Below the pieces are notes generated by a model. It was given only the letters and a program-made list of their open reading frames with translations. It did not search any database and was not told where the DNA came from. Of a stretch of 32,000 bases of DNA, positions 695 to 25,863 are shown piece after piece. The position numbers and the translations under genes were made by a program. Within the stretch, counting starts at the first letter, position 1; every line of letters starts with the position of its first letter. The DNA comes from a virus. Location: positions 3,282 to 35,281 of the IMG/VR virus record IMGVR_UViG_3300045988_024411; one strand, given 5' to 3'.

Positions 695-1110
695 CGAACG
701 ACATTATTGGTCAAAGTAAAGACCACGCAAGACAAGTATCGCACCTAGCAGTTACTAGAAATATGCTAGATGCACTCGAAAACCATGAGGAGCGTATCGC
801 TAATCTAGAAGACAACATGAGAGTGAACGCTGCACAAGAAATTAAATTAACTAACCTTGTCAACAGCAAGATTGTTGGATTGTTAGAAGGCAAGAAAAGC
901 AAGGCTTACCGCGATAATCATATTCGTGCTAAAGCGTATCATGCCATCAACAAAGAAATTATTAACCATTTCGGTGTGAGACGCAAAGAAATCCCTGCTA
1001 AAGAATTTAAGAACACCGTTATCTTTATCGAAAATTGGAGCTTGAATGATCAAGAGCTTAAAAACGAGATTTTCACTGCAAACCATCAAGGAAGTCTGTT
1101 TGAAGCGTAG
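691..1110 (+). CDS. ORF6C-domain protein (C-terminal domain type of phage antirepressors)
   Basis: 139-aa ORF with an ATGA overlap to the upstream gene. The block ...GKKSKAYRDNHIRAKAYHAINKEIINHFGVRRKEIPAKEFKNTVIFIENW matches my recollection of the ORF6C signature. Confidence 0.7.
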   Translation: MTNDIIGQSKDHARQVSHLAVTRNMLDALENHEERIANLEDNMRVNAAQEIKLTNLVNSKIVGLLEGKKSKAYRDNHIRAKAYHAINKEIINHFGVRRKEIPAKEFKNTVIFIENWSLNDQELKNEIFTANHQGSLFEA

Positions 1111-1136
1111 TTAGAGAGGTGTAGAAAGGAGACACT

Positions 1137-1277
1137 ATGAATGAAATCAAAATCCGTGAAGATAAAGTGTCCTTGGACGGTCAAGAGTTAAAAACACTTA
1201 CGGAATTCGAAATTAAAAGCACAACCGAGGACGGCTATGCTGAAGTGAAATTAACCTTACTTGCTAAATTGACCTGA
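1137..1277 (+). CDS. Small hypothetical protein (46 aa, MNEIKIREDKVSLDGQEL...)
   Basis: AAAGGAG SD at 1125-1131, 5 nt before the ATG. It fills an otherwise empty gap and is too short to appear in the ORF track. Confidence 0.45.
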   Translation: MNEIKIREDKVSLDGQELKTLTEFEIKSTTEDGYAEVKLTLLAKLT

Positions 1278-3415: not shown

Positions 3416-5137
3416 ATGAAAACACAAACAATTGCAAAACCAAGTTTTACTAAATCTAAAGCCTATGGCTTGTGCGGAACACTAGCTCTTGCTACTGCAT
3501 TGCTAATCGGTGCAGGATCAGTATCAGCAGACGAAACTACTCAACCAGTGGCAGACACTCAACCAGCGGTGTCTAATGTGTACACAGCGGACAATTCTGG
3601 CAATGTCACTGTGACACCTAGCGAAACAGTGGCACCAGTCGAAACACCAGCGGTTGCTACAGAAGCACCAGCAACAACTACAGAAGTAGCACAACCGGTA
3701 GCTGAAACACCGGCAGCACACACAAGCGTAACTAAAGAGGGTGACACAATTACAGTGGAAAACCCTAATGTTGAAGTAACTTTCCCTAATGGAACTGGTA
3801 AATACTCACCATTCGAGGTCGAGTATAAAGATATTGAGTTTCCGGATAGCATGGCTATCAACGAAGGAGACAAGGTAGTAACTGAGTTGCCTAAAGAGAT
3901 TGGCTTGCAAACTAGCTTTGATTTCGATGTTTACAACAATGAGAATGTTGTGGGAAAAGCTAACGCCGATGCTCAAACACGAGTGATTACTACGACATTC
4001 AATAATTACTTTACTGAACATCCATTGAATAAAAAGATGTCTTTGAAATTCGATGCTAAATGGCTTGATGTCGTTGAGCCTGGCAAACCAGTGACAGTCA
4101 ATTTCGACGGTACTGTTAAGACATTCACTATTGCAGAGGAAGGGCCACTTCCAACTGATGAGCTCTTGTCTAAATGGGGTAGTCAAAATAAAGACAACCC
4201 ACAAGTTATCAACTGGACATTGCGTCTGAACACGGCTCGTCAGGTCTTGAACTATGCAAAATTGCAAGATACTTGGTCAGACAATCAAGAATTTGTGGAC
4301 GGCTCACAGAGTATCTACTTTGTTGAAGATCCTGTTAAGTGGACTGGCATTGACTATTCAGCTAAGGATTACCTTGAAAGCTGGAATGTCCGAGCAGACG
4401 GGTTCGATGCGAAATTCAAAGAGTTTAACCGCATCATGTACATTGACTATCAAACACGTTTGAAGTCAGCGGTTAAAGACTCAACTAATCCGACTAACAA
4501 GGCTACATTGGTAGCGGTAGATGCTGGGGCTATCTCAACATCTAAGGTCCAATTGGTTGGCGGACGTGGTGATGCGTCCGGTGAAAACAAACCAGAACCA
4601 ACCTTTGAAATTCCTCGTGAAGCTCCAAAAGTAGACATCCCAGAATTTGAGGGTGGCATCCCTGGAATTCCAGAGGTGCGAGAATTGCCGGAGTACACTG
4701 AGCCAATCGGCACAGTGCCAAATGAAGCTCCAGTTTACGATAAGCCAGAGTGGAACGGAGGTATTCCGGGAATTCCGGAAGAACGTGAACTTCCACAATT
4801 CGAGGGTGGAGTAGTGCCAAACGATGCACCTATCTTGGACTTGCCAGAATTGGAAATTCCGGAAGAACCAACACCAGAAAAACCTAGCACATCAAAAGAG
4901 GCATCTAATAAGCCCGTAGACGCTCCGAAAGCGAAAGAGGTAGAAATTACCGAGGTCGTTTATAAAAACGATTCTGAGCCAAAAGAGGTGGCAAATACGA
5001 CAGTTTACGGCGGTGTTCTACCTAACACTGGCGAAAAAGAGGGTATCGCTAGCAATCTTGGATTGGTAGTAATTGCAGCAGGTATCACTGGACTTACTCT
5101 TGGATTTAAAAAACGCAACGAAGAAAAAGGGGAATAA
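3416..5137 (+). CDS. LPXTG cell-wall-anchored surface adhesin, MSCRAMM/collagen-binding-like A domain plus a proline-rich repeat region (573 aa)
   Basis: AAGGAG SD 6 nt before ATG 3416, so the ORF-track start at 3338 is rejected. Signal peptide ...LLIGAGSVSA/DE. ITTTFNNYF resembles the TYTFTDYV motif of MSCRAMM N2 domains. The C-terminus carries LPNTG, a hydrophobic helix and KKRNEEKGE. Repeats of the form PEFEGGIPGIPEVRELPEY / PEWNGGIPGIPEERELPQF are present. Confidence 0.9.
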   Translation: MKTQTIAKPSFTKSKAYGLCGTLALATALLIGAGSVSADETTQPVADTQPAVSNVYTADNSGNVTVTPSETVAPVETPAVATEAPATTTEVAQPVAETPAAHTSVTKEGDTITVENPNVEVTFPNGTGKYSPFEVEYKDIEFPDSMAINEGDKVVTELPKEIGLQTSFDFDVYNNENVVGKANADAQTRVITTTFNNYFTEHPLNKKMSLKFDAKWLDVVEPGKPVTVNFDGTVKTFTIAEEGPLPTDELLSKWGSQNKDNPQVINWTLRLNTARQVLNYAKLQDTWSDNQEFVDGSQSIYFVEDPVKWTGIDYSAKDYLESWNVRADGFDAKFKEFNRIMYIDYQTRLKSAVKDSTNPTNKATLVAVDAGAISTSKVQLVGGRGDASGENKPEPTFEIPREAPKVDIPEFEGGIPGIPEVRELPEYTEPIGTVPNEAPVYDKPEWNGGIPGIPEERELPQFEGGVVPNDAPILDLPELEIPEEPTPEKPSTSKEASNKPVDAPKAKEVEITEVVYKNDSEPKEVANTTVYGGVLPNTGEKEGIASNLGLVVIAAGITGLTLGFKKRNEEKGE

Positions 5138-5872: not shown

Positions 5873-6571
5873 ATGGAAGAAATGGAATTCACAGAGTTGC
5901 AACAACGGATGCAACTTGAAAAAAAACAAGAACGAAACGCCAAGTACGCTTCAAGGAGTGCTGAGGATATTTACAACACATTCAAGAGTTTGAAATCCAA
6001 CTGGAGTGTCGTTGTTGACTATGACTTGGTTGTAATTATGGACAAAACGTATATTAAAGCCACTGCTACAGCTTTCAAGAAAGGTTCAAGCGTGCAATCT
6101 GTGGCGTTTGCTGAGTTGTCTCCGGTGCCAATTTTGAAAACTCGCAACGGTGATCTAAAACAAATGACTGAGCCACAGTGGACAGGAGCGGTGCAATCAT
6201 ACGCTGGGAAATATGCCTTACAGTCATTGTTTGCGATTGGTGACCAAGATGTGGACCAGTTTGAAATGTCGGAGGATAGTTTGCAACAAAACCAACCTCA
6301 CAACAACCAACCGCATCAAAATCAGCAACCGCAACAAGCACACTACGAGTCAAGAAGCGATCAACAACCTAACTTTATCAGCAATGAACAGCATGACTTC
6401 ATTATGCAGCAAATCAATGAGTTAGCTCTAATTACTGGTCAATCAGTTGAAACAGTTGCTAATTACTACTTGAAGAAGTATAAACTCAATGATTTCCATG
6501 AATTGCTAGTAGCAGGATTTAACGTGGTAAGCAACGACATTCAAACACAAATCAACAATCGGAAGGGATAA
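5873..6571 (+). CDS. erf: ERF-family single-strand annealing recombinase with a Q/N/P-rich linker
   Basis: AAAGGA SD. The block ...MTEPQWTGAVQSYAGKYALQSLFAIGDQDVD resembles the ERF signature (GSA.TYARRYAL...FGI..eDD). Its position directly upstream of DUF1351 and SSB supports the call. Confidence 0.7.
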   Translation: MEEMEFTELQQRMQLEKKQERNAKYASRSAEDIYNTFKSLKSNWSVVVDYDLVVIMDKTYIKATATAFKKGSSVQSVAFAELSPVPILKTRNGDLKQMTEPQWTGAVQSYAGKYALQSLFAIGDQDVDQFEMSEDSLQQNQPHNNQPHQNQQPQQAHYESRSDQQPNFISNEQHDFIMQQINELALITGQSVETVANYYLKKYKLNDFHELLVAGFNVVSNDIQTQINNRKG

Positions 6572-11485: not shown

Positions 11486-11880
11486 TGATTCCAAGATTCA
11501 GAGTGTGGGATAAGACCTGTAAAACGATGTACGAAGTTGATGATATTATGTCTATCGATTTCGGGAAAAGCGAAATTTCTGTAAAAACGCTCTTTTTCGA
11601 ACGGACAAATTACTACAAATTCGATGACCTTGTTCTCATGCAGTCAACTGGACTGAGAGACAAGAATGGCAAAGAGATTTTCGAAGGGGATATCGTTGAT
11701 TACAAAGGGAAAAAAGCAGTCGTCAAATGGCATGGGTCTTATGCAAGTTTCGTTTACATGTTTGTGGATGAATCGAGAGACAGGAATCAAGAATGGGATC
11801 CGCTATATCTTTCTTATTTTCACTTTGAAGTGGTTGGCAATAAATTTGAAACACCAGCATTATTAGAGGTAAGCTCATGA
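11485..11880 (+). CDS. YopX-family protein
   Basis: MIPRFRVWDK..., LMQSTGLRDKNGKEIFEGDIV and EVVGNKFETPALLE are hallmark YopX blocks. Confidence 0.85.
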   Translation: MIPRFRVWDKTCKTMYEVDDIMSIDFGKSEISVKTLFFERTNYYKFDDLVLMQSTGLRDKNGKEIFEGDIVDYKGKKAVVKWHGSYASFVYMFVDESRDRNQEWDPLYLSYFHFEVVGNKFETPALLEVSS

Positions 11881-12587
11881 GCGTGAAATACAAATATTCC
11901 GGACTGACACCAGAATTATATCAGCTGTTGGTCAGTGAGCATGCATCACTGAAGAAAGCACACAAAAAAGGCTCATATAAGCAGTTTTTCCAAGAAGTGC
12001 GACAGTGCGATGAGTTACAAGCTCGCATCATATATCAAGCATTCAACGCCGCAGTTGTGGAACGTGCGAGGATATCGCCAGCGACAGTCGATAGACTGGA
12101 AGGCATTATTTCTGATGAATTATTTTGCGACCTTCAAGGTTATCTGTCCACTAATTATACAAGGGGTAAAACCACGCGCCCAGTGTTGAATAAAACCAAC
12201 GCAGGACTGCCAGAGGGCTTATTCAAGCGATTCCAGGAAGAAGTGGAAGAACTACGCAAGGAACACCCTAGAGATCTAAATAGCTATATTAGGGAAATCA
12301 AGGGTTGCAATCAGAGAGATGCTAACAGAGCCCAATACTCCCTAAATCGCTGCAATGCAGAAGACATCACCTTGACACCTTTAAGGCTCATTCAAATGGA
12401 AGGCTTACTTTCCAGAGACTTATTCAGCAAGATTGCTAGTTATGTCTTCAATAACTACGATTGGCCCGAAAAATTGGATGAGGATGCTGACCGCATTATG
12501 CTTGAGTACCGAACTAAAGGCAAGCTAGGCAAGGATAAAATCGCGGTCAGAAAAGCCTTATATAAAGCCTATTCGTTAGGCGTGTAG
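11877..12587 (+). CDS. Hypothetical protein built from two tandem ~100-aa repeats (236 aa). Last gene of the early operon.
   Basis: ATGA overlap with the upstream gene. The internal duplication is visible by eye (see findings). Confidence 0.65.
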   Translation: MSVKYKYSGLTPELYQLLVSEHASLKKAHKKGSYKQFFQEVRQCDELQARIIYQAFNAAVVERARISPATVDRLEGIISDELFCDLQGYLSTNYTRGKTTRPVLNKTNAGLPEGLFKRFQEEVEELRKEHPRDLNSYIREIKGCNQRDANRAQYSLNRCNAEDITLTPLRLIQMEGLLSRDLFSKIASYVFNNYDWPEKLDEDADRIMLEYRTKGKLGKDKIAVRKALYKAYSLGV

Positions 12588-12626
12588 CTAGAACGGTTTA
12601 TGAGGGTTCGACTCCCTTACTAGCTA
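12585..12626 (+). ncRNA. tRNA-like minihelix 1 (7-bp acceptor-like stem, GG linker and canonical T-arm; no D or anticodon arms)
   Basis: TAGCTAG / AACGGTTTA / TGAGGG-TTCGACT-CCCTTA / CTAGCTA, followed by TTACCA. The stem overlaps the stop codon of the upstream gene. Confidence 0.5.
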
Positions 12627-12629
12627 TTA

Positions 12630-12760
12630 CCAGTCAATCTAAATATAGAATCGAGGAATCCTTTATTTTTTTCATTCAAATCAGCAGAAGCGGGACTGGT
12701 CGTGGATGCTACCAAAATCCAGTAAATCTAAAACATAGAAAGTAGGTATCCTTTATTTTT
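12630..12760. repeat. Two copies of a ~43-nt direct repeat (CCAGTnAATCTAAA..ATAGAA..G.AGG.ATCCTTTATTTTT)
   Basis: Copy a is at 12630-12672 and copy b at 12719-12760. A third AATCTAAA lies at 12771-12778, and an inverted GCTACCAGTAAT at 12783-12794. Confidence 0.75.
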
Positions 12761-12898
12761 ATCTTTACAAAATCTAAAGCGCATTACTGGTAGCGTGATT
12801 CTTTAAGGCTTATGCCTGCACTTAATTAGATATAGGCCAGAAATCTCTATAATTCTACCTAACTTTATTTCTTGTTTAAAAGTCTATTATTATGAGTT

Positions 12899-12923
12899 CA
12901 AAAAAAGAAGGAGGAAAACCTCC
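12899..12923 (-). terminator. Hairpin GGAGG-AAAA-CCTCC flanked by an A7 run. It is an intrinsic terminator if read on the minus strand, or an SD/anti-SD hairpin on the plus strand.
   Basis: The minus strand reads GGAGGTTTTCCTCC followed by TTCTTTTTTTG. Confidence 0.35.
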
Positions 12924-12945
12924 GAAAATGATTTCTCTATATCTA

Positions 12946-12988
12946 GGCGAGAATGGTTTTATCATGGGTTCGATTCCCGTGGCTCGTC
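12946..12988 (+). ncRNA. tRNA-like minihelix 2 (paralogue of minihelix 1)
   Basis: GGCGAG / AATGGTTTTAT / CATGGG-TTCGATT-CCCGTG / G / CTCGTC. The architecture matches copy 1, with compensatory changes in both stems. Confidence 0.5.
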
Positions 12989-13187
12989 ATTGTCTGTCAA
13001 AACACTAAAAAATAAGAATAGATTTTTTAGTGGCTTGAACACTTTTTCGACACGAGCAAGCTGACAGACCTTGCTCAAAACAAAACCCGGCAAATATAAG
13101 AAAAAAGGATGTGAAAGGCCCTCTTTCTTATTGATATCAAAATTGCATTTACTACAGCGATTAGCAATCTTGCCGGTATTGCTGATC

Positions 13188-13201
13188 TAGAAGGAGGTGA
13201 T
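13188..13201 (+). promoter_or_regulatory. Orphan super-Shine-Dalgarno sequence (TAGAAGGAGGTGAT) with no ORF behind it. Candidate STAB-SD-type mRNA stabiliser in the arpU leader.
   Basis: AAGGAGGTGAT gives 11 nt of perfect complementarity to the canonical Firmicute 16S 3' tail (GAUCACCUCCUU). The downstream frames stop after 6 codons or fewer. Confidence 0.4.
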
Positions 13202-13354
13202 AAAGATAGCTTGAGAAACACCCAAGAATAAACACTTATTCTATCTTTTCAATAAAATCTCTTAACGTTTCTTGAGCTAAAATAAAAAAGACCGACACAA
13301 TGGCCGGCACTCTTTGAAAGTCAACACTACTATTATACCAGAGAGGGCAGAACA

Positions 13355-13771
13355 ATGCTATTGCCGGAAATTGATGAGAAAGCAACTATCAGAGGTTGCA
13401 AGCGTAAACTTCGAGAATATCCAAGATGGCGAGAAATTGCACACGATAGCGCTGAGCAGAAGATTACACAAGAGTTCACTTTCATGCCAAGAGGTGGCAA
13501 CGGAGTGAGCAGACCAGTGGAAAATATCGCAGTCAGACGTGTCGATGCTACGAACGAGCTAGAAGCCATAGAGCAAGCAGTTAGCGGGCTATATCGTCCA
13601 GACTATCGCAGAATACTGATAGAGAAATATCTGGCATACCCACCGAAACCAAACTGGCAAATTGCCCAGGCAATCGGATTCGAGAGAACGGCTTTTCAAG
13701 AGCTACTTAATAATGCTATCCTAGCATTTGCTGAATTGTATAGAGATGGCAAATTGGTTGTAGAATGTTGA
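13355..13771 (+). CDS. arpU: ArpU-family late transcriptional regulator
   Basis: 138 aa. ...REYPRWREIA..., ...NELEAIEQAVSGL..DYRRILIEKYL... and C-terminal ...AILAFAELYRDGKLVV, plus its position directly upstream of terS. Confidence 0.85.
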   Translation: MLLPEIDEKATIRGCKRKLREYPRWREIAHDSAEQKITQEFTFMPRGGNGVSRPVENIAVRRVDATNELEAIEQAVSGLYRPDYRRILIEKYLAYPPKPNWQIAQAIGFERTAFQELLNNAILAFAELYRDGKLVVEC

Positions 13772-13774
13772 AAT

Positions 13775-13838
13775 GACGGTATTTTGACGGATAAAGCACG
13801 GTATCTTACAACTGTTTAAAGTGGTATTATTATATTAT
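13775..13838 (+). promoter_or_regulatory. Candidate late promoter: three 8-bp direct repeats phased at 11 bp, then an AT-rich -10 region
   Basis: GACGGTAT (13775), GACGGATA (13786) and CACGGTAT (13797), followed by TATTATTATATTAT at 13825-13838. Confidence 0.45.
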
Positions 13839-13851
13839 CGAAGAAAATCAG

Positions 13852-13880
13852 AGACAGCTCACTTTGTGGGTTGTCTTTTT
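13852..13880 (+). terminator. Leader terminator or attenuator hairpin between the late promoter and terS
   Basis: AGACAGCTCAC-TTT-GTGGGTTGTCT forms an 11-bp stem (2 G-U pairs) followed by TTTT. It lies 20 nt upstream of the terS start. Confidence 0.55.
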
Positions 13881-13899
13881 CAGTATCAGAAAGGAGTTG

Positions 13900-14343
13900 A
13901 TGGAAAATGGGATGACCGAAAAACAAATAAAGTTTGCCGATGAGTACATCATCAGCCTAAACGCTACGCAAGCGTACAAGAAGGCTTATCCTAGTATTAA
14001 GAAGATAAGGACGGCAGAAGTCAATGGTAGTAAGCTACTAAGAAATACTGAGGTCAAGGCTTATATAGACGAACGACTGGAACAATTAAAGTCGGAACGT
14101 GTTGCGGATCAACAAGAGGTCATGGAATTTCTAACTGCCGTCATGCGTGGAGAAGTTGAAGAACCCTTGCTGGTCCTCGATGGCGAGGGCATGCAACGCA
14201 TTGCTCAAGCTAAGCCGAACGTCGCTACTCGTCGAGCTGCGGCAGTTGATATCGGTAAGCGTTATAGAATGTGGACAGACAAGGTCGAAGCTGATGTAAC
14301 GCAAGATATCAATATTAATGTCGGTGAATGGAATGACGATTAA
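13900..14343 (+). CDS. terS: Terminase small subunit (Terminase_2 type)
   Basis: MTEKQIKFADEYIISLNATQAYKKAY...LLRNTEVKAYIDERL is the classic N-terminal HTH of Firmicute TerS. The start could be 13900 or 13912. The ORF-track start at 13864 is unlikely because it lies upstream of the SD. Confidence 0.9.
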   Translation: MENGMTEKQIKFADEYIISLNATQAYKKAYPSIKKIRTAEVNGSKLLRNTEVKAYIDERLEQLKSERVADQQEVMEFLTAVMRGEVEEPLLVLDGEGMQRIAQAKPNVATRRAAAVDIGKRYRMWTDKVEADVTQDININVGEWNDD

Positions 14344-22234: not shown

Positions 22235-22611
22235 GGCAAAGTCAACCAGATTATGATTTCAGCTATGACGACGCAATGGCCCTCTTGATTGCAAGGCACG
22301 GCATGAGCTATGTCGAAGCTGCTAGGACAACGCTTGTTGAATTTGAGGTATATAATACCGCCTACGCTATTAAACAAGAGGACATCCGCTTTAACGCAGC
22401 TATTCAAGCATGGTATAACCAGACCGTGCAAGCTACCAAAGGCAAGGGCAAAAGTGTTCGTTCAGCTTACAGAACCTTTAATGAGTTTTATGATCATGAG
22501 AAAGAGTTCAGCAAGATATTTAAACCAGAGGACACTGTGCCTAGAAGTCGAGCGCTCTCGTTAGCTGATAAGAATAGGATCATCAATCAAAAAATGAAAG
22601 GGGGTAGTTAA
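21893..22611 (+). CDS. Tail assembly chaperone frameshift product (gpGT-like; -1 shift within 22183-22234)
   Basis: The downstream ORF is in the -1 frame, open from 22183. It overlaps the end of gpG, has no SD before its first ATG (22276), and ends with an ATG overlap onto the TMP start. Confidence 0.6.
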
Positions 22612-23255
22612 TGGGAGTATCTTTTGACGTTACGGCCATACTTCGTGCCAACTCAAGCGACTTCACCAACGGTGTCAATGCTGCTAAGTCTGCCCTTGCT
22701 GATTTAAAAAATCAGTCTGGGGGCATGCTTGCTCAAGTTGGTAGCAGTTTAAAGTCAGTTGGTAGCGCCATGCAGTCAGTCGGAGCTGGAATGACCACAG
22801 CTTTTACACTGCCTATGGTTGGAGGTTTGACTGCCGTCATCAAAGGCTATGCAGACCTTGAGCAATCTTTGGGTGGTGTTTCTACGCTATTCAAACAGAA
22901 TGGCTCAAGCGTCAATACCCTTGCCAGAGACTACGGCATGACCAGACAGCAAGCTCAAGCGCTCTATAACACTATGGACCGTGAGGGAACCAACGTTATT
23001 GAGAATGCCAACCGAGCCTATAGGACGGCTGGTGTGTCTGCTAACCGCTATATGGAGCAGGTGACATCGTTCTCAGCTACCTTGTTACAAGGTCTAGGCG
23101 GTGATACTGCCAAGGCTGCGAAATACGGTGATAAAGCCCTTGTCCAAATGTCGGATAATGCGAACAAGTTCGGTACTAACATGACGGACATTCAAAACGC
23201 TTATCAAGGTTTTGCCAAGGACAACTATTCAATGTTGGACAACTTGAAACTCGGT
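22611..23255 (+). CDS. Tape measure protein, exon 1 (215 codons). The unspliced frame reads on to a stop at 23318.
   Basis: Ends ...AYQGFAKDNYSMLDNLKLG at the proposed 5' splice site. Confidence 0.8.
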
Positions 23256-23538
23256 AGAAAAACCATAGCCGAGTATAAACCTAGTGAAAACGGTGAAACT
23301 CTACGCTACACGGCGTAGACAATACCGTGCTAAGCTTAGAAACAGGAAAGTGTAACGACTATCGAAACAGAAAAAGCATCCGATAAGGGTGTTTTTTTAA
23401 TGGAGTAGAGTAGGCTCAAGCGAGCCGAAGCGCTAGGGTGTATTTAATACATAAGAGATAGTCTAATCTCTATGGCGACATAGAGCAGTCTTCAAAAGGC
23501 GGTTGTGATTTAGCGAATCACAGCGAATATGTACCGTG
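23256..23538 (+). ncRNA. Group I self-splicing intron (283 nt, no homing-endonuclease ORF)
   Basis: P1 with a U-G wobble at the splice site, P10 complementary to the start of exon 2, a terminal G, and candidate P2, P3, P8 (GNRA loop) and P9 hairpins. Details are in the findings. Confidence 0.75.
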
Positions 23539-25863
23539 TATGGTGGTACCATGTCCGAAATGGCTCGTTTGGTCAATGAGTCTGGTGTCTTGAATGGTGA
23601 GTTTGAAGCTACGGCTGACAATATCCGTGATATCCCATTCCATACCTTGATTGATGCCATCGGTATTACTCAAGATAGGCTTGGAGTAACCGGAACTACT
23701 GCGAAAGAAGCAAGTACAACCGTGTCCGGTTCATTCAATTCCATGAAAGCAGCCGCTGAGAACTTAGTGGCCGGTCTTGGTAATAACGAAGCTAATATCA
23801 AGCAGCTCATGGATAACATGAAGCAGACTATCATCACGTTCAAGGATAATGTGGTGCGTGTTCTAGGGACTATCTGGGACAATCTGCCAGTGGACGGCTG
23901 GGTTAAATGGGCAGCGCTTATCATTGGAGCGGCGGGGCCTATTATTGCAATATTGGGGACCTTAATCATTTGGATCGGTAACGTCGTTTCTGCACTTAGC
24001 ACAATCGGTGGGGCTATCAGCTCAGTAGTAGGGTTCTTTTCAAGCGGTTCTACCGCAGCTAGCGGTCTAGGAGCTGCTTTCAGTGGTCTATCAGCCGGAG
24101 CTCTTGCCGCTTTTGCCGGGATTGTTGCTGCCGTGGCTTTGGTTGGGGCTGCACTCGTTGACTTGTGGAACAATAACGAGAATTTCCGTGCACAAGTTAC
24201 GGCAATATGGGAAACCATCAAGAGTGCAATCACTAGCGCTGTTCAAGCCATTGTGTCGTTTGTTATGTCAATTTGGGGGCAGTTGACTTCCTTCTGGAAC
24301 GAAAACCACGCCTTGATTATGCAGACAGCGACAACTTACTGGAATATGTTCAAGGGCATAATTGAAAGTGTCATGAACGCTATTCTTCCAGTCGTTCAAA
24401 CTGGATTGAATTTGCTGATTACACTGTTCTCGACAAGCTGGCAAATGATTACCACAGTTATTTCAACAGTTATTGATGTTATCCTCAACATCATCAAGAT
24501 GGGTATGCAGATTCTACAAGGTGACTGGTCTGGAGCGTGGGAAACGTTCAAAACTATCTTGTCTACTGTGTGGGAAGGTATCAAGTCACTTGTTTCAATC
24601 GGTATCAATGCTATTGGTCCGATTATCCAAGCGGGTATTCAATTCATTCTCGCTATCTGGAACGCAGCATGGGCATTGTTAGCTATTCCATTCCAAACGC
24701 TTTGGGCATTACTTCAACAAATCGCTGGCGGAGCCATGACTGCCATTAGCGGTGTGATTAGTGCCGGGATTGCCGTGATTCAATCCATTTGGTCAGCAGC
24801 GTGGACGGTTATCCAGACTGTTTTCTCAACGGTTTGGAATACAATCATGTCCATTCTGTCACCTATCATGGCTGGTATCTCAAGCATTATCTCAAGCACC
24901 TTGTCAGCTATTCAAGCGATTTGGAACGCTATTTGGACGGGGATCCAAGCTGTTTTGGCTGGTGTATTAGCTGCCATTGTCGGATTGGTTACTGGTAACT
25001 TCTCGCAAGTTCAAGCGGCTATTTCGTCAATTATGTCAGCTATTCAAGCCACTATCAGTGCGATTTGGAACGCTATCTTGTCGCTTGTCAGCAGCGTATT
25101 GAGTGCGATTGCTAGCACTGTATCAAGTACATGGTCAGCTATCCAGTCAATCATTTCAAGTGCCATGAGCTCTGTTCAGAGCATTATCAGCTCAGCTTGG
25201 AGCGCTGTTAGATCAGCGGTATCAAGTGCTATGAGCTCTATTCAGTCGGCTATCACTAGCGGATTTAGTGCCGTTGTATCAGCGGTAACAAGTGCCGGTC
25301 AGCGTATCATTTCAGCAGTTCGCTCAGCGTTCAGCGGTGCACTTAGTGCAGCCCGTGGATTCGTTGGACAAGCTGCAAGCGTAGGTGCTAACCTTATTAG
25401 CGGTTTCGTTAGCGGGGTTACATCCGCAGCCGGCAAGTTGATTTCAGCGGTTAAAGGTGCGGTAGGTAACGCCATCAATGGAGCTAAAGCCTTGCTTGGT
25501 ATCAAATCGCCATCCCGTGTATTCCGTCAATTCGGTATCTACACGGATAAAGGTTTCATCATTGGTATCGACAGCAAAGCGGCCCAAGTAGCCCGCTCAA
25601 TGCGTTATATGGCCCAAGGAGCTATTGACGCATTCATTGGTCAAGATATCAACGGAGCCATCACTGATGAACTCGGTAGCATGGACGGCCAGTTAGGTCG
25701 TTTAGCAGGGTATGATCCATCTGTTTCGTTTAACGGCGGTAAGATGTCGGTTATTCAACAAGCAGTGGATATCGTGCTCAAGATGGGTGATACAACTTAC
25801 AGGGCATTTACTGAGGACATCACTAACGCTCAATCAATGGAATTAATGCTTGATAACTATTAA
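23539..25863 (+). CDS. Tape measure protein, exon 2 (774 aa). The spliced TMP would total 989 aa.
   Basis: Starts YGGTMSEMARL...GVTGTTAKEA. A long hydrophobic Ala/Ser/Ile-rich array carries recurring W(N/S)A(A/I)W motifs. C-terminal ...LLGIKSPSRVFRQFG. Confidence 0.85.
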   Translation, partial: YGGTMSEMARLVNESGVLNGEFEATADNIRDIPFHTLIDAIGITQDRLGVTGTTAKEASTTVSGSFNSMKAAAENLVAGLGNNEANIKQLMDNMKQTIITFKDNVVRVLGTIWDNLPVDGWVKWAALIIGAAGPIIAILGTLIIWIGNVVSALSTIGGAISSVVGFFSSGSTAASGLGAAFSGLSAGALAAFAGIVAAVALVGAALVDLWNNNENFRAQVTAIWETIKSAITSAVQAIVSFVMSIWGQLTSFWNENHALIMQTATTYWNMFKGIIESVMNAILPVVQTGLNLLITLFSTSWQMITTVISTVIDVILNIIKMGMQILQGDWSGAWETFKTILSTVWEGIKSLVSIGINAIGPIIQAGIQFILAIWNAAWALLAIPFQTLWALLQQIAGGAMTAISGVISAGIAVIQSIWSAAWTVIQTVFSTVWNTIMSILSPIMAGISSIISSTLSAIQAIWNAIWTGIQAVLAGVLAAIVGLVTGNFSQVQAAISSIMSAIQATISAIWNAILSLVSSVLSAIASTVSSTWSAIQSIISSAMSSVQSIISSAWSAVRSAVSSAMSSIQSAITSGFSAVVSAVTSAGQRIISAVRSAFSGALSAARGFVGQAASVGANLISGFVSGVTSAAGKLISAVKGAVGNAINGAKALLGIKSPSRVFRQFGIYTDKGFIIGIDSKAAQVARSMRYMAQGAIDAFIGQDINGAITDELGSMDGQLGRLAGYDPSVSFNGGKMSVIQQAVDIVLKMGDTTYRAFTEDITNAQSMELMLDNY

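What the first reader, a model, noticed from the sequence alone, without database searches (positions are those of the whole stretch)
12585..12988. Two covarying tRNA-like acceptor/T-arm minihelices in an ORF-free gap, the first overlapping the last early stop codon
Two roughly 42-nt elements lie 360 nt apart and share one architecture but differ in stem sequence.

- Copy 1 (12585-12626): TAGCTAG | AACGGTTTA | TGAGGG TTCGACT CCCTTA | CTAGCTA, followed by TTACCA.
- Copy 2 (12946-12988): GGCGAG | AATGGTTTTAT | CATGGG TTCGATT CCCGTG | G | CTCGTC.

Both carry a 7-nt loop matching the universal T-loop (TTCGAnT) on a 6-bp stem. That stem stacks on a 6-7-bp acceptor-like stem. A conserved single-stranded AAyGGTTT linker contains a GG that could mimic D-loop G18/G19 contacting the T-loop. 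There is no D arm or anticodon arm.

The stems differ between the copies but stay paired. T-stem pairs change T-A/G-U/A-T to C-G/A-T/U-G, and the acceptor stems are entirely different. That is covariation rather than simple duplication.

Copy 1 begins exactly on the TAG stop codon of the last early gene.

Ideas, all speculative:
- RNase P/Z punctuation signals that cut the early polycistron.
- CCA-adding or tRNA-elbow mimics.
- Decoys for tRNA-targeting defence nucleases.
- Footprints of tRNA 3' halves (att-site relics).

The phage is otherwise packed gene to gene, so 767 bp without any ORF of 60 aa or more on either strand is anomalous in itself.
Basis: partly seen in the sequence, partly recalled or inferred. 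Interest (0 to 1): 0.8.

Follow-up and report, generated by a model that had tools for sequence, protein, structure and literature searches.

The report
tRNA top-half mimics in phage RNA
Two short hairpins that imitate the upper half of a tRNA sit in a gene-free stretch of a Streptococcus phage, are kept with compensating mutations in many related phages, and most likely serve as cutting marks for the host's tRNA-processing enzymes.

Summary
Each has a 6-8 bp acceptor-like stem, a 9-10 nt D-loop-like linker (A-R-Y-G-G-U-U), a 6-7 bp T stem and a canonical T-loop.

They are not tRNA or tmRNA genes, match no Rfam family, and element 1 is not a copy of a host tRNA 3' end.

They lie between a DUF1340 gene and the late activator gene arpU in a Streptococcus salivarius/thermophilus-type phage. 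All informative related loci carry element 1, and about 70% of distinct gap sequences also carry element 2. Pairing is kept through compensatory and G-U changes, which points to + strand RNA.

The same architecture with unrelated stems occurs in S. thermophilus phages and, downstream of arpU, in S. pyogenes, S. dysgalactiae and S. agalactiae prophages. In other phages this slot holds real tRNAs and a GOLLD RNA.

Best reading: these are selected derivatives of phage tRNA genes, analogous to plant-mitochondrial t-elements. They probably mark RNase P and RNase Z cuts in the early transcript. That mechanism is inferred, not shown.

The parts
12584..12627 (+). Element 1, a tRNA top-half mimic. Lower stem is G.U plus TAGCTAG/CTAGCTA (12584-12591 with 12620-12627). 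Linker AACGGTTTA is 12592-12600. T stem TGAGGG/CCCTTA is 12601-12606 with 12614-12619. T-loop TTCGACT is 12607-12613. TAG 12585-12587 is the DUF1340 stop codon.
   Evidence: CM R1 scores 74.5 bits. Mean pairwise identity is 95% across 40 loci, against 70% at DUF1340 third codon positions.
12946..12988 (+). Element 2, a paralogous top-half mimic. Lower stem is GGCGAG/CTCGTC (12946-12951 with 12983-12988). Linker AATGGTTTTA is 12952-12961. T stem TCATGGG/CCCGTGG is 12962-12968 with 12976-12982. T-loop TTCGATT is 12969-12975.
   Evidence: Cells paired 99.4%. Five pairs show compensatory change, reached by 0 of 500 shuffles.
12628..12945 (+). Inter-element module of about 320 nt, present or absent as a block. 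It holds the tail TTACCAGT (12627-12634) and two ~47-nt direct repeats (12630-12676 and 12719-12766, about 90 nt apart). It also holds the hairpin AATC..GCGC[ATTACTGGTA]GCGT GATT (12771-12800) and the hairpin GGAGG-AAAA-CCTCC (12910-12923).
   Evidence: Single-element loci join element 1 directly to TTGTCTGTCA. L079 is an element 1/element 2 hybrid.
12990..12999 (+). Tail 2, TTGTCTGTCA. In every aligned locus but L189 (GTCTGTCG) it lies 3' of element 2, or of element 1 in single-element loci. It is complementary to the loop at 13061-13069 and to GGCAGA at 13346-13351 just before the arpU start codon.
13054..13076 (+). Hairpin GAGCAAG[CTGACAGAC]CTTGCTC. The stem covaries and the loop, complementary to tail 2, is invariant.
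   Evidence: pairs 137-159 show GC/AU/GU exchanges.
13310..13354 (+). The last part of the arpU leader. CTCTTTG (13310-13316) can pair with CAGAGAG (13339-13345), which overlaps the Shine-Dalgarno region.
   Evidence: RNAalifold pairs 398-404 with 427-433. The pairs vary at most on one side (U-A to U-G at 402/429), so there is no covariation support.
11877..12587 (+). DUF1340 (PHROG 1814) gene. Its stop codon lies inside element 1.
13355..13771 (+). arpU-type late transcriptional activator gene, downstream of the structured gap.

Best explanation
The two elements are functional + strand RNA structures inside the early polycistronic transcript. Each is a tRNA top half: acceptor stem, a D-loop remnant able to dock on the T-loop, and a T arm.

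**Origin.** They descend from phage tRNA genes that lost the D stem and anticodon arm. Related phages still carry full tRNAs in the same slot next to arpU.

**Mechanism (inferred, not shown).**
- They keep the part of a tRNA that RNase P, RNase Z and the CCA-adding enzyme recognise. They would then act as punctuation, like plant-mitochondrial t-elements.
- RNase P would cut at the 5' edge and RNase Z just after the 3' strand.
- This would separate the upstream early mRNA, the ~320-nt noncoding module between the elements, and the arpU mRNA with its structured leader.
- The late activator's stability and translation would then be set independently of the early genes.

**Confidence split.**
- About 0.85 that these are selected, tRNA-derived RNA structures.
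- About 0.4-0.45 that processing by tRNA-maturation nucleases is what they are selected for.
For: **Structure and selection**
- The loop is UUCGAYU and the closing pair is G-C in 239 of 242 copies in 728 kb of related loci.
- The linker consensus A-R-Y-G-G-U-U matches D-loop positions 14-20.
- Within orthologues, element 1 is 97% paired with 3 pairs changed on both sides. Element 2 is 99.4% paired with 5 such pairs. In both, no shuffle reached the covariation score, and slid controls paired only 30-58%.
- Across genera, pairing is 97.4% and 12 of 14 pairs show compensatory change.
- Distinct hairpins hold 48 G-U among 292 pairs, which would be A-C mismatches on the - strand.
- Element 1 is 95% identical across 40 loci, against 70% at DUF1340 third codon positions.

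**Distribution**
- Element 1 is present in every informative DUF1340-anchored locus.
- All 93 covariance-model hits in 316 kb lie on the + strand, 200-750 nt upstream of arpU.

**Link to tRNA genes**
- The same slot holds tRNA-Asn in phiFL1C.
- It holds tRNA-Ser, GOLLD and a UUA tRNA in Javan636.
- It holds a decayed tRNA in Javan161.

**Transcription**
- No + strand terminator-like site occurs in the gap.
- In phage 2972, which carries an element, TEX RNA-seq found only an early and a middle promoter, and the authors place arpU in the early gene cluster (PMC11551762).

**From established knowledge**
- Acceptor/T-arm hairpins are substrates of RNase P, RNase Z and the CCA-adding enzyme.
- The three bases after the discriminator are UAC or GUC, not CCA. 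This suits RNase Z.
Against: - No RNA end mapping exists for these positions.
- The stacked helix is 13-14 bp, not the 12 bp of a tRNA.
- G at -1 and U at +1 are the opposite of what bacterial RNase P prefers (established knowledge).
- A cut at the 5' edge of element 1 would remove the DUF1340 stop codon.
- Linker-less copies, T-arm-only hairpins (TP-J34, 5093) and loss of the first hairpin in phage 2972 show that parts are dispensable.
- In pyogenic-group prophages the elements lie in the arpU 3' region ahead of terminators. Separating genes is less obviously needed there.
- Between-paralogue differences in the stems may simply reflect descent from different tRNAs.
Confidence: 0.45

Rival explanations
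1. Neutral relics. The elements are decaying leftovers of a phage tRNA island with no function of their own. Their stems pair only because the ancestral tRNAs paired.
For: - There is a graded series from true tRNA to degenerate tRNA, minihelix, linker-less minihelix and bare T-arm hairpin.
- The hybrid L079 has a broken acceptor stem.
- Phage 2972 has lost the 3' strand of its first hairpin.
Against: - Compensatory double changes occur within orthologous lineages. Examples are G-C to A-U in L054, C-G to U-A between TP-J34 and 5093-type hairpins, and U-A to C-G plus G-C to C-G in the TAGCCAG lineage.
- Element 1 is more conserved (95%) than codon positions 1-2 of the neighbouring gene (90-92%), and far above third positions (70%).
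- Element 1 is present in all informative loci.
Confidence: 0.12
2. Decoy or sponge RNA. After release, and perhaps CCA addition, the stable ~45-nt minihelices bind a host factor that recognises the tRNA elbow or acceptor end. Candidates are a tRNA-targeting defence nuclease or toxin, a modification enzyme, or a 3' exonuclease.
For: - Several copies per phage carry different acceptor stems.
- The helix end is conserved as G.U / U-A / A-U / G-C, with G.U in 20 of 23 informative distinct sequences. This suggests sequence-specific recognition.
- tRNA fragments are known anti-CRISPR cofactors in a staphylococcal phage (PMC11662646).
Against: - No anticodon arm is present, and that is the target of most known tRNA-cleaving defences.
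- Nothing shows that a discrete small RNA accumulates.
- No partner gene is consistently linked. DUF1340 is adjacent only in the salivarius/thermophilus group.
Confidence: 0.15
3. Cis-regulatory leader. The minihelices are structural modules of a long riboregulator that times ArpU synthesis. Their 3' tails switch between pairing with downstream hairpin loops and with the arpU ribosome-binding region. A ribosome terminating at the TAG inside element 1 melts its stem and couples the switch to upstream translation.
For: - Tail TTACCAGT matches loop ATTACTGGTA. Tail GTCTGTCA matches loop CTGACAGAC and GGCAGA just before the AUG.
- The hairpin stems covary while their loops stay fixed. L067 has an unrelated stem with the same ACTGGTA loop.
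- CTCTTTG can pair with the Shine-Dalgarno region.
- The stop codon overlaps the helix in three different arrangements: TAG in the acceptor stem, TAG in the T stem, and TGA in the T stem of L162.
Against: - The tail and loop sequences are almost invariant, so pairing between them has no covariation support. They could be DNA sites instead.
- In L189 the CCAGTAAAT unit is not attached to a minihelix.
- In pyogenic-group prophages the elements lie downstream of arpU.
- GUAG begins the elements even where no ORF ends.
- None of this explains why a T-loop in particular is kept.
Confidence: 0.15
4. DNA-level recombination hot spots. The near-universal GGTTCGAnTCC core gives short homology that lets phages swap or lose noncoding modules.
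For: - The ~320-nt module is present or absent exactly between the elements.
- L079 is a recombinant joined inside the T-loop.
- Module order differs in L189.
Against: - Recombination explains the indels. It does not explain the compensatory changes in the stems, the bias towards G-U pairs on one strand, or the conserved D-loop-like linker.
- This is more likely a side effect than the selected function.
Confidence: 0.08
5. Fragments of host tRNA 3' ends left by integration or excision (att-site relics).
For: The T-arm sequence is tRNA-like. Streptococcal phages often integrate into tRNA genes (established knowledge).
Against: - Both strands of the acceptor stem are present, not just a 3' half.
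- The location is mid-genome, next to arpU.
- The 3' half of element 1 occurs in only one Streptococcus genome among 185,579 species, and that copy is a prophage element with no tRNA.
- ARAGORN and Rfam find no tRNA here.
Confidence: 0.02

Closest known systems
Plant-mitochondrial t-elements (tRNA-like processing signals)
   Same: Both consist of an acceptor stem and T arm only, with no anticodon arm. Both derive from tRNA genes and are embedded in polycistronic transcripts next to coding regions, sometimes overlapping a stop codon. This comparison rests on established knowledge.
   Different: This is a bacterial virus, not an organelle. Here a D-loop-like linker is retained and the helix is 13-14 bp. 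Cleavage by RNase P and RNase Z is shown for t-elements but untested here.
tmRNA tRNA-like domain
   Same: Both have an acceptor stem, a single-stranded D-loop analogue with GG, and a T arm, with no D stem. The Rfam tmRNA models match only these parts.
   Different: There is no mRNA-like region, no pseudoknots, no G3:U70 pair and no terminal CCA. The total length is 44 nt rather than about 350.
mascRNA / MALAT1-type tRNA-like 3' modules
   Same: Both are tRNA mimics inside a long transcript, used as a handle for RNase P and RNase Z to define RNA ends (established knowledge).
   Different: Those are eukaryotic full cloverleaves. Here only the top half is present, and processing is not demonstrated.
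Phage tRNA islands with GOLLD or ROOL RNAs
   Same: They occupy the same genomic slot. Javan636 carries tRNA-Ser, GOLLD and a UUA tRNA between arpU and terS, and phiFL1C carries tRNA-Asn there. GOLLD and ROOL are reported near tRNA islands in prophages (PMC12286853).
   Different: The window gap gives no GOLLD, ROOL or tRNA hit even at E of 10 or less. The elements cannot decode because they have no anticodon arm.
RNase P hairpin substrates such as the phage P1/P7 C4 RNA precursor
   Same: Both are phage-encoded acceptor/T-like hairpins within a longer transcript that RNase P could cut (established knowledge).
   Different: C4 is an antisense repressor with a 3' CCA. Here there is no CCA in register, there are two copies, and no known antisense target.

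Membership tests
Canonical tRNA gene | Cloverleaf with a D stem and an anticodon arm | tested here: not met
   ARAGORN finds 0 genes in the window. Rfam gives no tRNA hit at gathering score or at E of 10 or less. Only 9-10 nt lie between the acceptor 5' strand and the T stem.
Canonical tRNA gene | T arm with a 7-nt loop U54-U55-C56-R57-A58-N-Y and a G53-C61 closing pair | tested here: met
   Loops are TTCGACT or TTCGATT. The closing pair is G-C in 239 of 242 copies in related loci and invariant in the broad alignment.
Canonical tRNA gene | 7-bp acceptor stem stacked on a 5-bp T stem (12 bp), then a discriminator and CCA | tested here: not met
   The stack is 13-14 bp. CCA is out of register after element 1 and absent in many orthologues.
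tmRNA | tRNA-like domain plus an mRNA-like reading frame and pseudoknots | tested here: not met
   Only T-arm fragments match, at 6.8 and 9.9 bits against gathering scores of 47 and 84. ARAGORN finds no tmRNA.
t-element-like processing signal (functional class) | Acceptor stem plus T arm without an anticodon arm, inside a longer transcript | tested here: met
   No + strand terminator-like site lies in the gap. Transcription is inferred from phage 2972 RNA-seq.
t-element-like processing signal (functional class) | Cleavage by RNase P at the 5' edge and RNase Z at the 3' edge | not testable with these tools
   This needs end mapping or in vitro cleavage.
GOLLD / ROOL large phage RNAs | Match to the Rfam covariance model | tested here: not met
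   No hit in 12400-13450 at E of 10 or less. As a positive control, GOLLD scores 245 bits in Javan636.
Intrinsic terminator | G+C-rich hairpin followed directly by a U run | tested here: not met
   No + strand terminator-like site in 12300-13900. The elements are followed by UUACCAGU and AUUGUCUG.
att site / host tRNA 3' fragment | Identity to the 3' end of a host tRNA gene, with only the 3' part present | tested here: not met
   Element 1 was tested and has no Streptococcus tRNA match. Both acceptor strands are present in both elements. The 3' half of element 2 was not scanned.
Viral aminoacylatable tRNA-like structure | Lies at the 3' terminus of the RNA and ends in CCA | tested here: not met
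   The elements are internal to the gap and have no conserved CCA.

The most novel reading that the evidence does not exclude
Streptococcal phages carry a previously undescribed family of bacterial t-elements, tRNA top-half modules, in the same pre-packaging slot where other phages keep tRNAs and GOLLD.

- They would be cut by RNase P and RNase Z to excise a new ~320-nt noncoding RNA.
- The cuts would also release CCA-tagged minihelices that act in trans, for example as decoys against defences that target the tRNA acceptor end.
- Alternatively, the cuts would physically uncouple arpU mRNA from early RNA that type III CRISPR targets.
Probability: 0.18. Interest if true: 0.8.

Novelty: new variant of a known kind. 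Interest (0 to 1): 0.6.

Why it matters
**What would be new**
- tRNA-like punctuation of mRNAs is established in organelles and for a few eukaryotic long RNAs, but hardly at all in bacteria or their viruses.
- These elements occur in well-studied dairy phages (2972, TP-J34, 5093) and in pathogen prophages (S. pyogenes 315.5). They are unannotated and are in no Rfam family.

**What it would explain, if they are processing marks**
- How one early promoter can yield RNAs with different fates.
- How the late activator ArpU is timed.

**Link to an open question**
- The elements share a genomic slot with phage tRNA islands and GOLLD RNA. The function of GOLLD and ROOL, and their association with tRNAs, are unexplained.

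**Testability**
- Infection RNA-seq for phage 2972 has been published (PMC11551762). Its read ends could be checked at once.

Tried and rejected
**Known RNA gene or family**
- tRNA or tmRNA gene: rejected.
- Any Rfam family in the gap: none above noise. The JUMPstart/ops-like match GGTAGCGTG at 12789-12797 has E = 5 and lies in a hairpin, so I treated it as chance.

**Coding and host-derived readings**
- Small ORFs over element 2 (the 38-aa ORF at 12892-13008, or the 26 aa from its internal ATG at 12929): not conserved. SA-TP2 has a 1-nt indel and lacks the start.
- Host tRNA 3' end copy: rejected for element 1.

**Structure on the other strand, or as a terminator**
- The - strand folds are weak, and G-U pairs would become A-C mismatches.
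- Terminator function: no U run follows either element.

**Linked protein**
- The DUF1340 protein was a candidate partner. It has no PDB sequence relative, only DUF and PHROG labels of unknown function, and is not linked to the elements in pyogenic-group prophages. I did not pursue it.

**Literature**
- Searches for a described tRNA-like element in these phages found nothing relevant.
- The TP-J34 paper does not discuss the stem-loops annotated in its GenBank record.
- No supplementary text is held for the 2972 RNA-seq paper.

**Technical dead ends**
- A joint MAFFT alignment of elements 1 and 2 put the T stems out of register. I analysed them separately and then through a covariance-model alignment.
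- Model R2 found no copy in PH15, SM1, SA-TP1, IPP24, phiFL1C or Javan636. The regex scan still found T-arm hairpins in PH15, IPP24, phiFL1C and Javan636; the phiFL1C one and two of five in Javan636 lie in real tRNAs.
Full report
**1. What is there**

The window is a temperate Streptococcus phage of the salivarius/thermophilus type. Its nearest record is S. salivarius phage SA-TP2, and S. thermophilus Brussowvirus phages also match.

The finding lies in a 767-bp ORF-poor gap. Upstream is a DUF1340/PHROG 1814 gene (11877-12587). Downstream is the ArpU-type late activator gene (13355-13771), followed by terS and terL.

- Element 1 runs from 12584 to 12627. It has an 8-bp lower stem that includes a terminal G.U pair, a 9-nt linker AACGGUUUA, a 6-bp T stem and the loop UUCGACU.
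- Element 2 runs from 12946 to 12988. It has a 6-bp lower stem, a 10-nt linker AAUGGUUUUA, a 7-bp T stem and the loop UUCGAUU.

The core GGTTCGAYTCC occurs only at these two places in 32 kb, against 0.00 expected from shuffles. Both structures are the minimum-free-energy folds alone and in context.

**2. What it is not**

- ARAGORN finds no tRNA or tmRNA in the window.
- Rfam at gathering score finds only a group I intron elsewhere.
- A permissive Rfam scan of the gap returns only the T-arm fragments of tmRNA models.
- The small ORF over element 2 is not conserved.
- No + strand terminator-like site lies in the gap.
- The 3' half of element 1 (T-loop to CTAGCTA) matches 88 stretches in 185,579 species genomes. 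The sampled matches outside Streptococcus are tRNA-Met genes of unrelated phyla or tRNA-like pieces in Companilactobacillus. The single Streptococcus match is a prophage copy of the element itself.

**3. Conservation, covariation and strand**

I collected 160 IMG/VR loci anchored on the DUF1340 gene or on arpU.
- Element 1 follows the DUF1340 stop codon in every informative locus. L056 is truncated, and L005 has an 8-nt loop.
- About 70% of distinct complete gaps also carry element 2.
- A covariance model built from element 1 finds 93 hits in 316 kb. All are on the + strand and lie 200-750 nt upstream of arpU, with none elsewhere.

Pairing within orthologues:

| Element | Cells paired | Pairs changed on both sides | Shuffles reaching the covariation score |
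|---|---|---|---|
| 1 | 97.0% | 3 | 0/500 |
| 2 | 99.4% | 5 | 0/500 |

Slid controls paired only 30-58%.

Some double changes are recent single events. One is G-C to A-U in L054. Another is C-G to U-A between the TAGCGG and TAGTGG hairpins of S. thermophilus phages.

G-U pairs are frequent, 48 of 292 pairs in distinct hairpins. They would be A-C mismatches on the other strand, so the folded molecule is the + strand.

Across 40 two-element loci, mean pairwise identity is as follows:

| Region | Identity |
|---|---|
| Element 1 | 95% |
| Element 2 | 81% |
| Inter-element module | 84% |
| DUF1340 codon positions 1 / 2 | 90% / 92% |
| DUF1340 codon position 3 | 70% |

Element 1 is under sequence constraint. 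Element 2 keeps its pairing mainly through compensatory change.

The linker consensus A-R-Y-G-G-U-U follows D-loop positions A14, R15, Y16, G18, G19, U20. Linker-less copies of both elements also exist.

**4. Wider family and origin**

S. thermophilus phages of three genera carry two copies upstream of arpU. The genera are Brussowvirus (TP-J34, CHPC1230, CHPC869, 2972), Vansinderenvirus (5093, SW24) and Piorkowskivirus (CHPC926).
- One copy is a bare T-arm hairpin that starts on the DUF1340 stop codon.
- The other is a linker-less minihelix.
- Phage 2972 keeps only the second.

Prophages of the pyogenic group carry two or three copies with unrelated stems, this time downstream of arpU. They are S. 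dysgalactiae Javan161, S. pyogenes 315.5 and S. agalactiae Javan53. In Javan161, terminator-like hairpins with T runs follow the copies.

On the broad model-fitted alignment, 97.4% of cells pair and 12 of 14 pairs show compensatory change. G53-C61 is invariant and the terminal G.U is nearly so. Two caveats apply. The alignment was fitted to the model, and paralogues may descend from different tRNAs.

In other phages the same slot holds real tRNAs:
- tRNA-Asn in Enterococcus phage phiFL1C;
- tRNA-Ser, a GOLLD RNA (245 bits) and a tRNA with anticodon UUA in S. uberis phage Javan636, followed by more bare T arms.

Javan161 has a decayed tRNA (31 bits on Rfam tRNA, not called by ARAGORN). It is followed by the same downstream hairpin (TAGTGG..CCACTA) as the Javan636 UUA tRNA.

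Together these form a series, all in one slot on one strand: tRNA, degenerate tRNA, minihelix with D-loop remnant, linker-less minihelix, T-arm hairpin. The elements are best read as derivatives of phage tRNA genes.

**5. Anatomy of the gap**

The gap is modular.
- Short forms of 350-420 nt join element 1 directly to TTGTCTGTCA.
- Long forms of 570-780 nt insert a ~320-nt module and element 2 before that same sequence.
- L079 is an element 1/element 2 hybrid joined in the T-loop, so recombination between the elements does occur.

Each tail is complementary to the loop of a downstream hairpin whose stem covaries:
- UUACCAGU pairs with the loop AUUACUGGUA at 12783-12792;
- GUCUGUCA pairs with the loop CUGACAGAC at 13061-13069.

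RNAalifold also pairs GUCUGUC with GGCAGA just before the arpU AUG, and CUCUUUG with the Shine-Dalgarno region. In long forms it pairs the two tails with each other. The partners in these contacts are almost invariant, so they remain leads rather than findings.

**6. Transcription**

TEX RNA-seq of phage 2972 found only an early and a middle promoter, and its authors place arpU in the early gene cluster (PMC11551762). Phage 2972 carries an element of this family in its arpU leader.

With no + strand terminator in the window gap, the elements are most likely transcribed as an internal part of the early polycistron. This is an inference from a relative, not a measurement on this phage.

**7. How it most likely works**

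The retained part of the tRNA is the part recognised by RNase P, RNase Z and the CCA-adding enzyme (established knowledge). The three bases after the discriminator are not CCA, which suits RNase Z.

I therefore favour punctuation. Cuts at the element borders would separate three pieces: the early mRNA, the noncoding module between the elements, and the arpU mRNA with its leader. This is the mechanism of plant-mitochondrial t-elements.

Several points count against it.
- The helix is 13-14 bp, not 12.
- G at -1 and U at +1 do not suit RNase P.
- The DUF1340 stop codon would be lost.
- Some lineages have reduced or lost copies.
- In pyogenic prophages the elements sit in a 3' region ahead of terminators.

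Rival readings are a decoy RNA, riboregulator modules, recombination hot spots and neutral relics. The neutral reading is the one the data argue against most clearly. The others are not mutually exclusive with punctuation.

**8. Novelty and score**

No paper found in the searches describes these elements, and Rfam 15 has no model for them. tRNA-like processing modules are a known kind of thing. A covarying family of top-half mimics in streptococcal phages, sharing a slot with tRNAs and GOLLD, is a new variant of that kind.

I score interest at 0.6. The structure and its selection are solid, and the setting (arpU timing, the GOLLD/tRNA slot) is intriguing. The function rests on inference but can be tested with published data.

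Noticed in passing
window 23224-23485 (+), flanked by ORFs 22611-23318 and 23536-25863: A group I intron (Rfam RF00028, 60 bits) interrupts the tail tape-measure gene. Both flanking ORFs match tape-measure PHROGs.
   Followed up: partly
L264 (S. uberis phage Javan636) 3097-4480: A 2-kb CDS-free gap between arpU and terS. It holds tRNA-Ser, a GOLLD RNA (3516-3900, 245 bits), a tRNA with anticodon UUA (possible ochre suppressor with a G3.U70-like pair) and three further bare T-arm hairpins.
   Followed up: partly
L256 (Javan161) 2457-2523: A degenerate tRNA that scores 31 bits on Rfam tRNA but is not called by ARAGORN. It is followed by the same downstream hairpin (TAGTGG..CCACTA) as the Javan636 UUA tRNA, so it may be an intermediate in tRNA decay.
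   Followed up: partly
window 12910-12923 and 13291-13308 (- strand); 13025-13039 (- strand): Two terminator-like hairpins with T runs read on the minus strand inside the gap. A 4-bp hairpin on the minus strand has a T-loop-like loop (AGTG|TTCAAGC|CACT); its + strand sequence is conserved in the aligned loci (93 minus-strand T-loop-like hairpins were counted in the related loci, not itemised). An antisense transcript is possible.
   Followed up: no
window 12627-12634 / 12783-12792; 12992-12998 / 13061-13069 / 13346-13351; 13310-13316 / 13339-13345: A network of 6-8 nt complementarities links the tails after the minihelices, the loops of covarying hairpins and the arpU ribosome-binding region. 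It may be a translational switch. The partners are almost invariant, so it is unproven.
   Followed up: partly
window 12630-12676 and 12719-12766: Two ~47-nt direct repeats about 90 nt apart (CCAGTnAATCTAAA..TAGAA..AGGnATCCTTTATTTTT). The unit is present once in some loci (L024, L061, L067) and detached from element 1 in L189.
   Followed up: partly
L079 around 2708-2760: A hybrid element with the 5' half of element 1 and the 3' half of element 2, joined in the T-loop, with the module deleted. It is direct evidence of recombination between the two elements.
   Followed up: yes
L265/L266 (phage 2972 record ends, 34690-34704 and 1-20): The GenBank record of phage 2972 begins inside the remnant of the first T hairpin. 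Its 3' strand is deleted relative to TP-J34.
   Followed up: yes
L226 about 1108-1180 (-), L169 about 800-850 (+), L204 about 6001-6030 (-): Companilactobacillus genomes carry armless tRNA-like elements with the same CTAGCTA 3' strand, next to tRNA genes. Similar degenerate tRNA-like modules may be common in Lactobacillales prophage tRNA islands.
   Followed up: no
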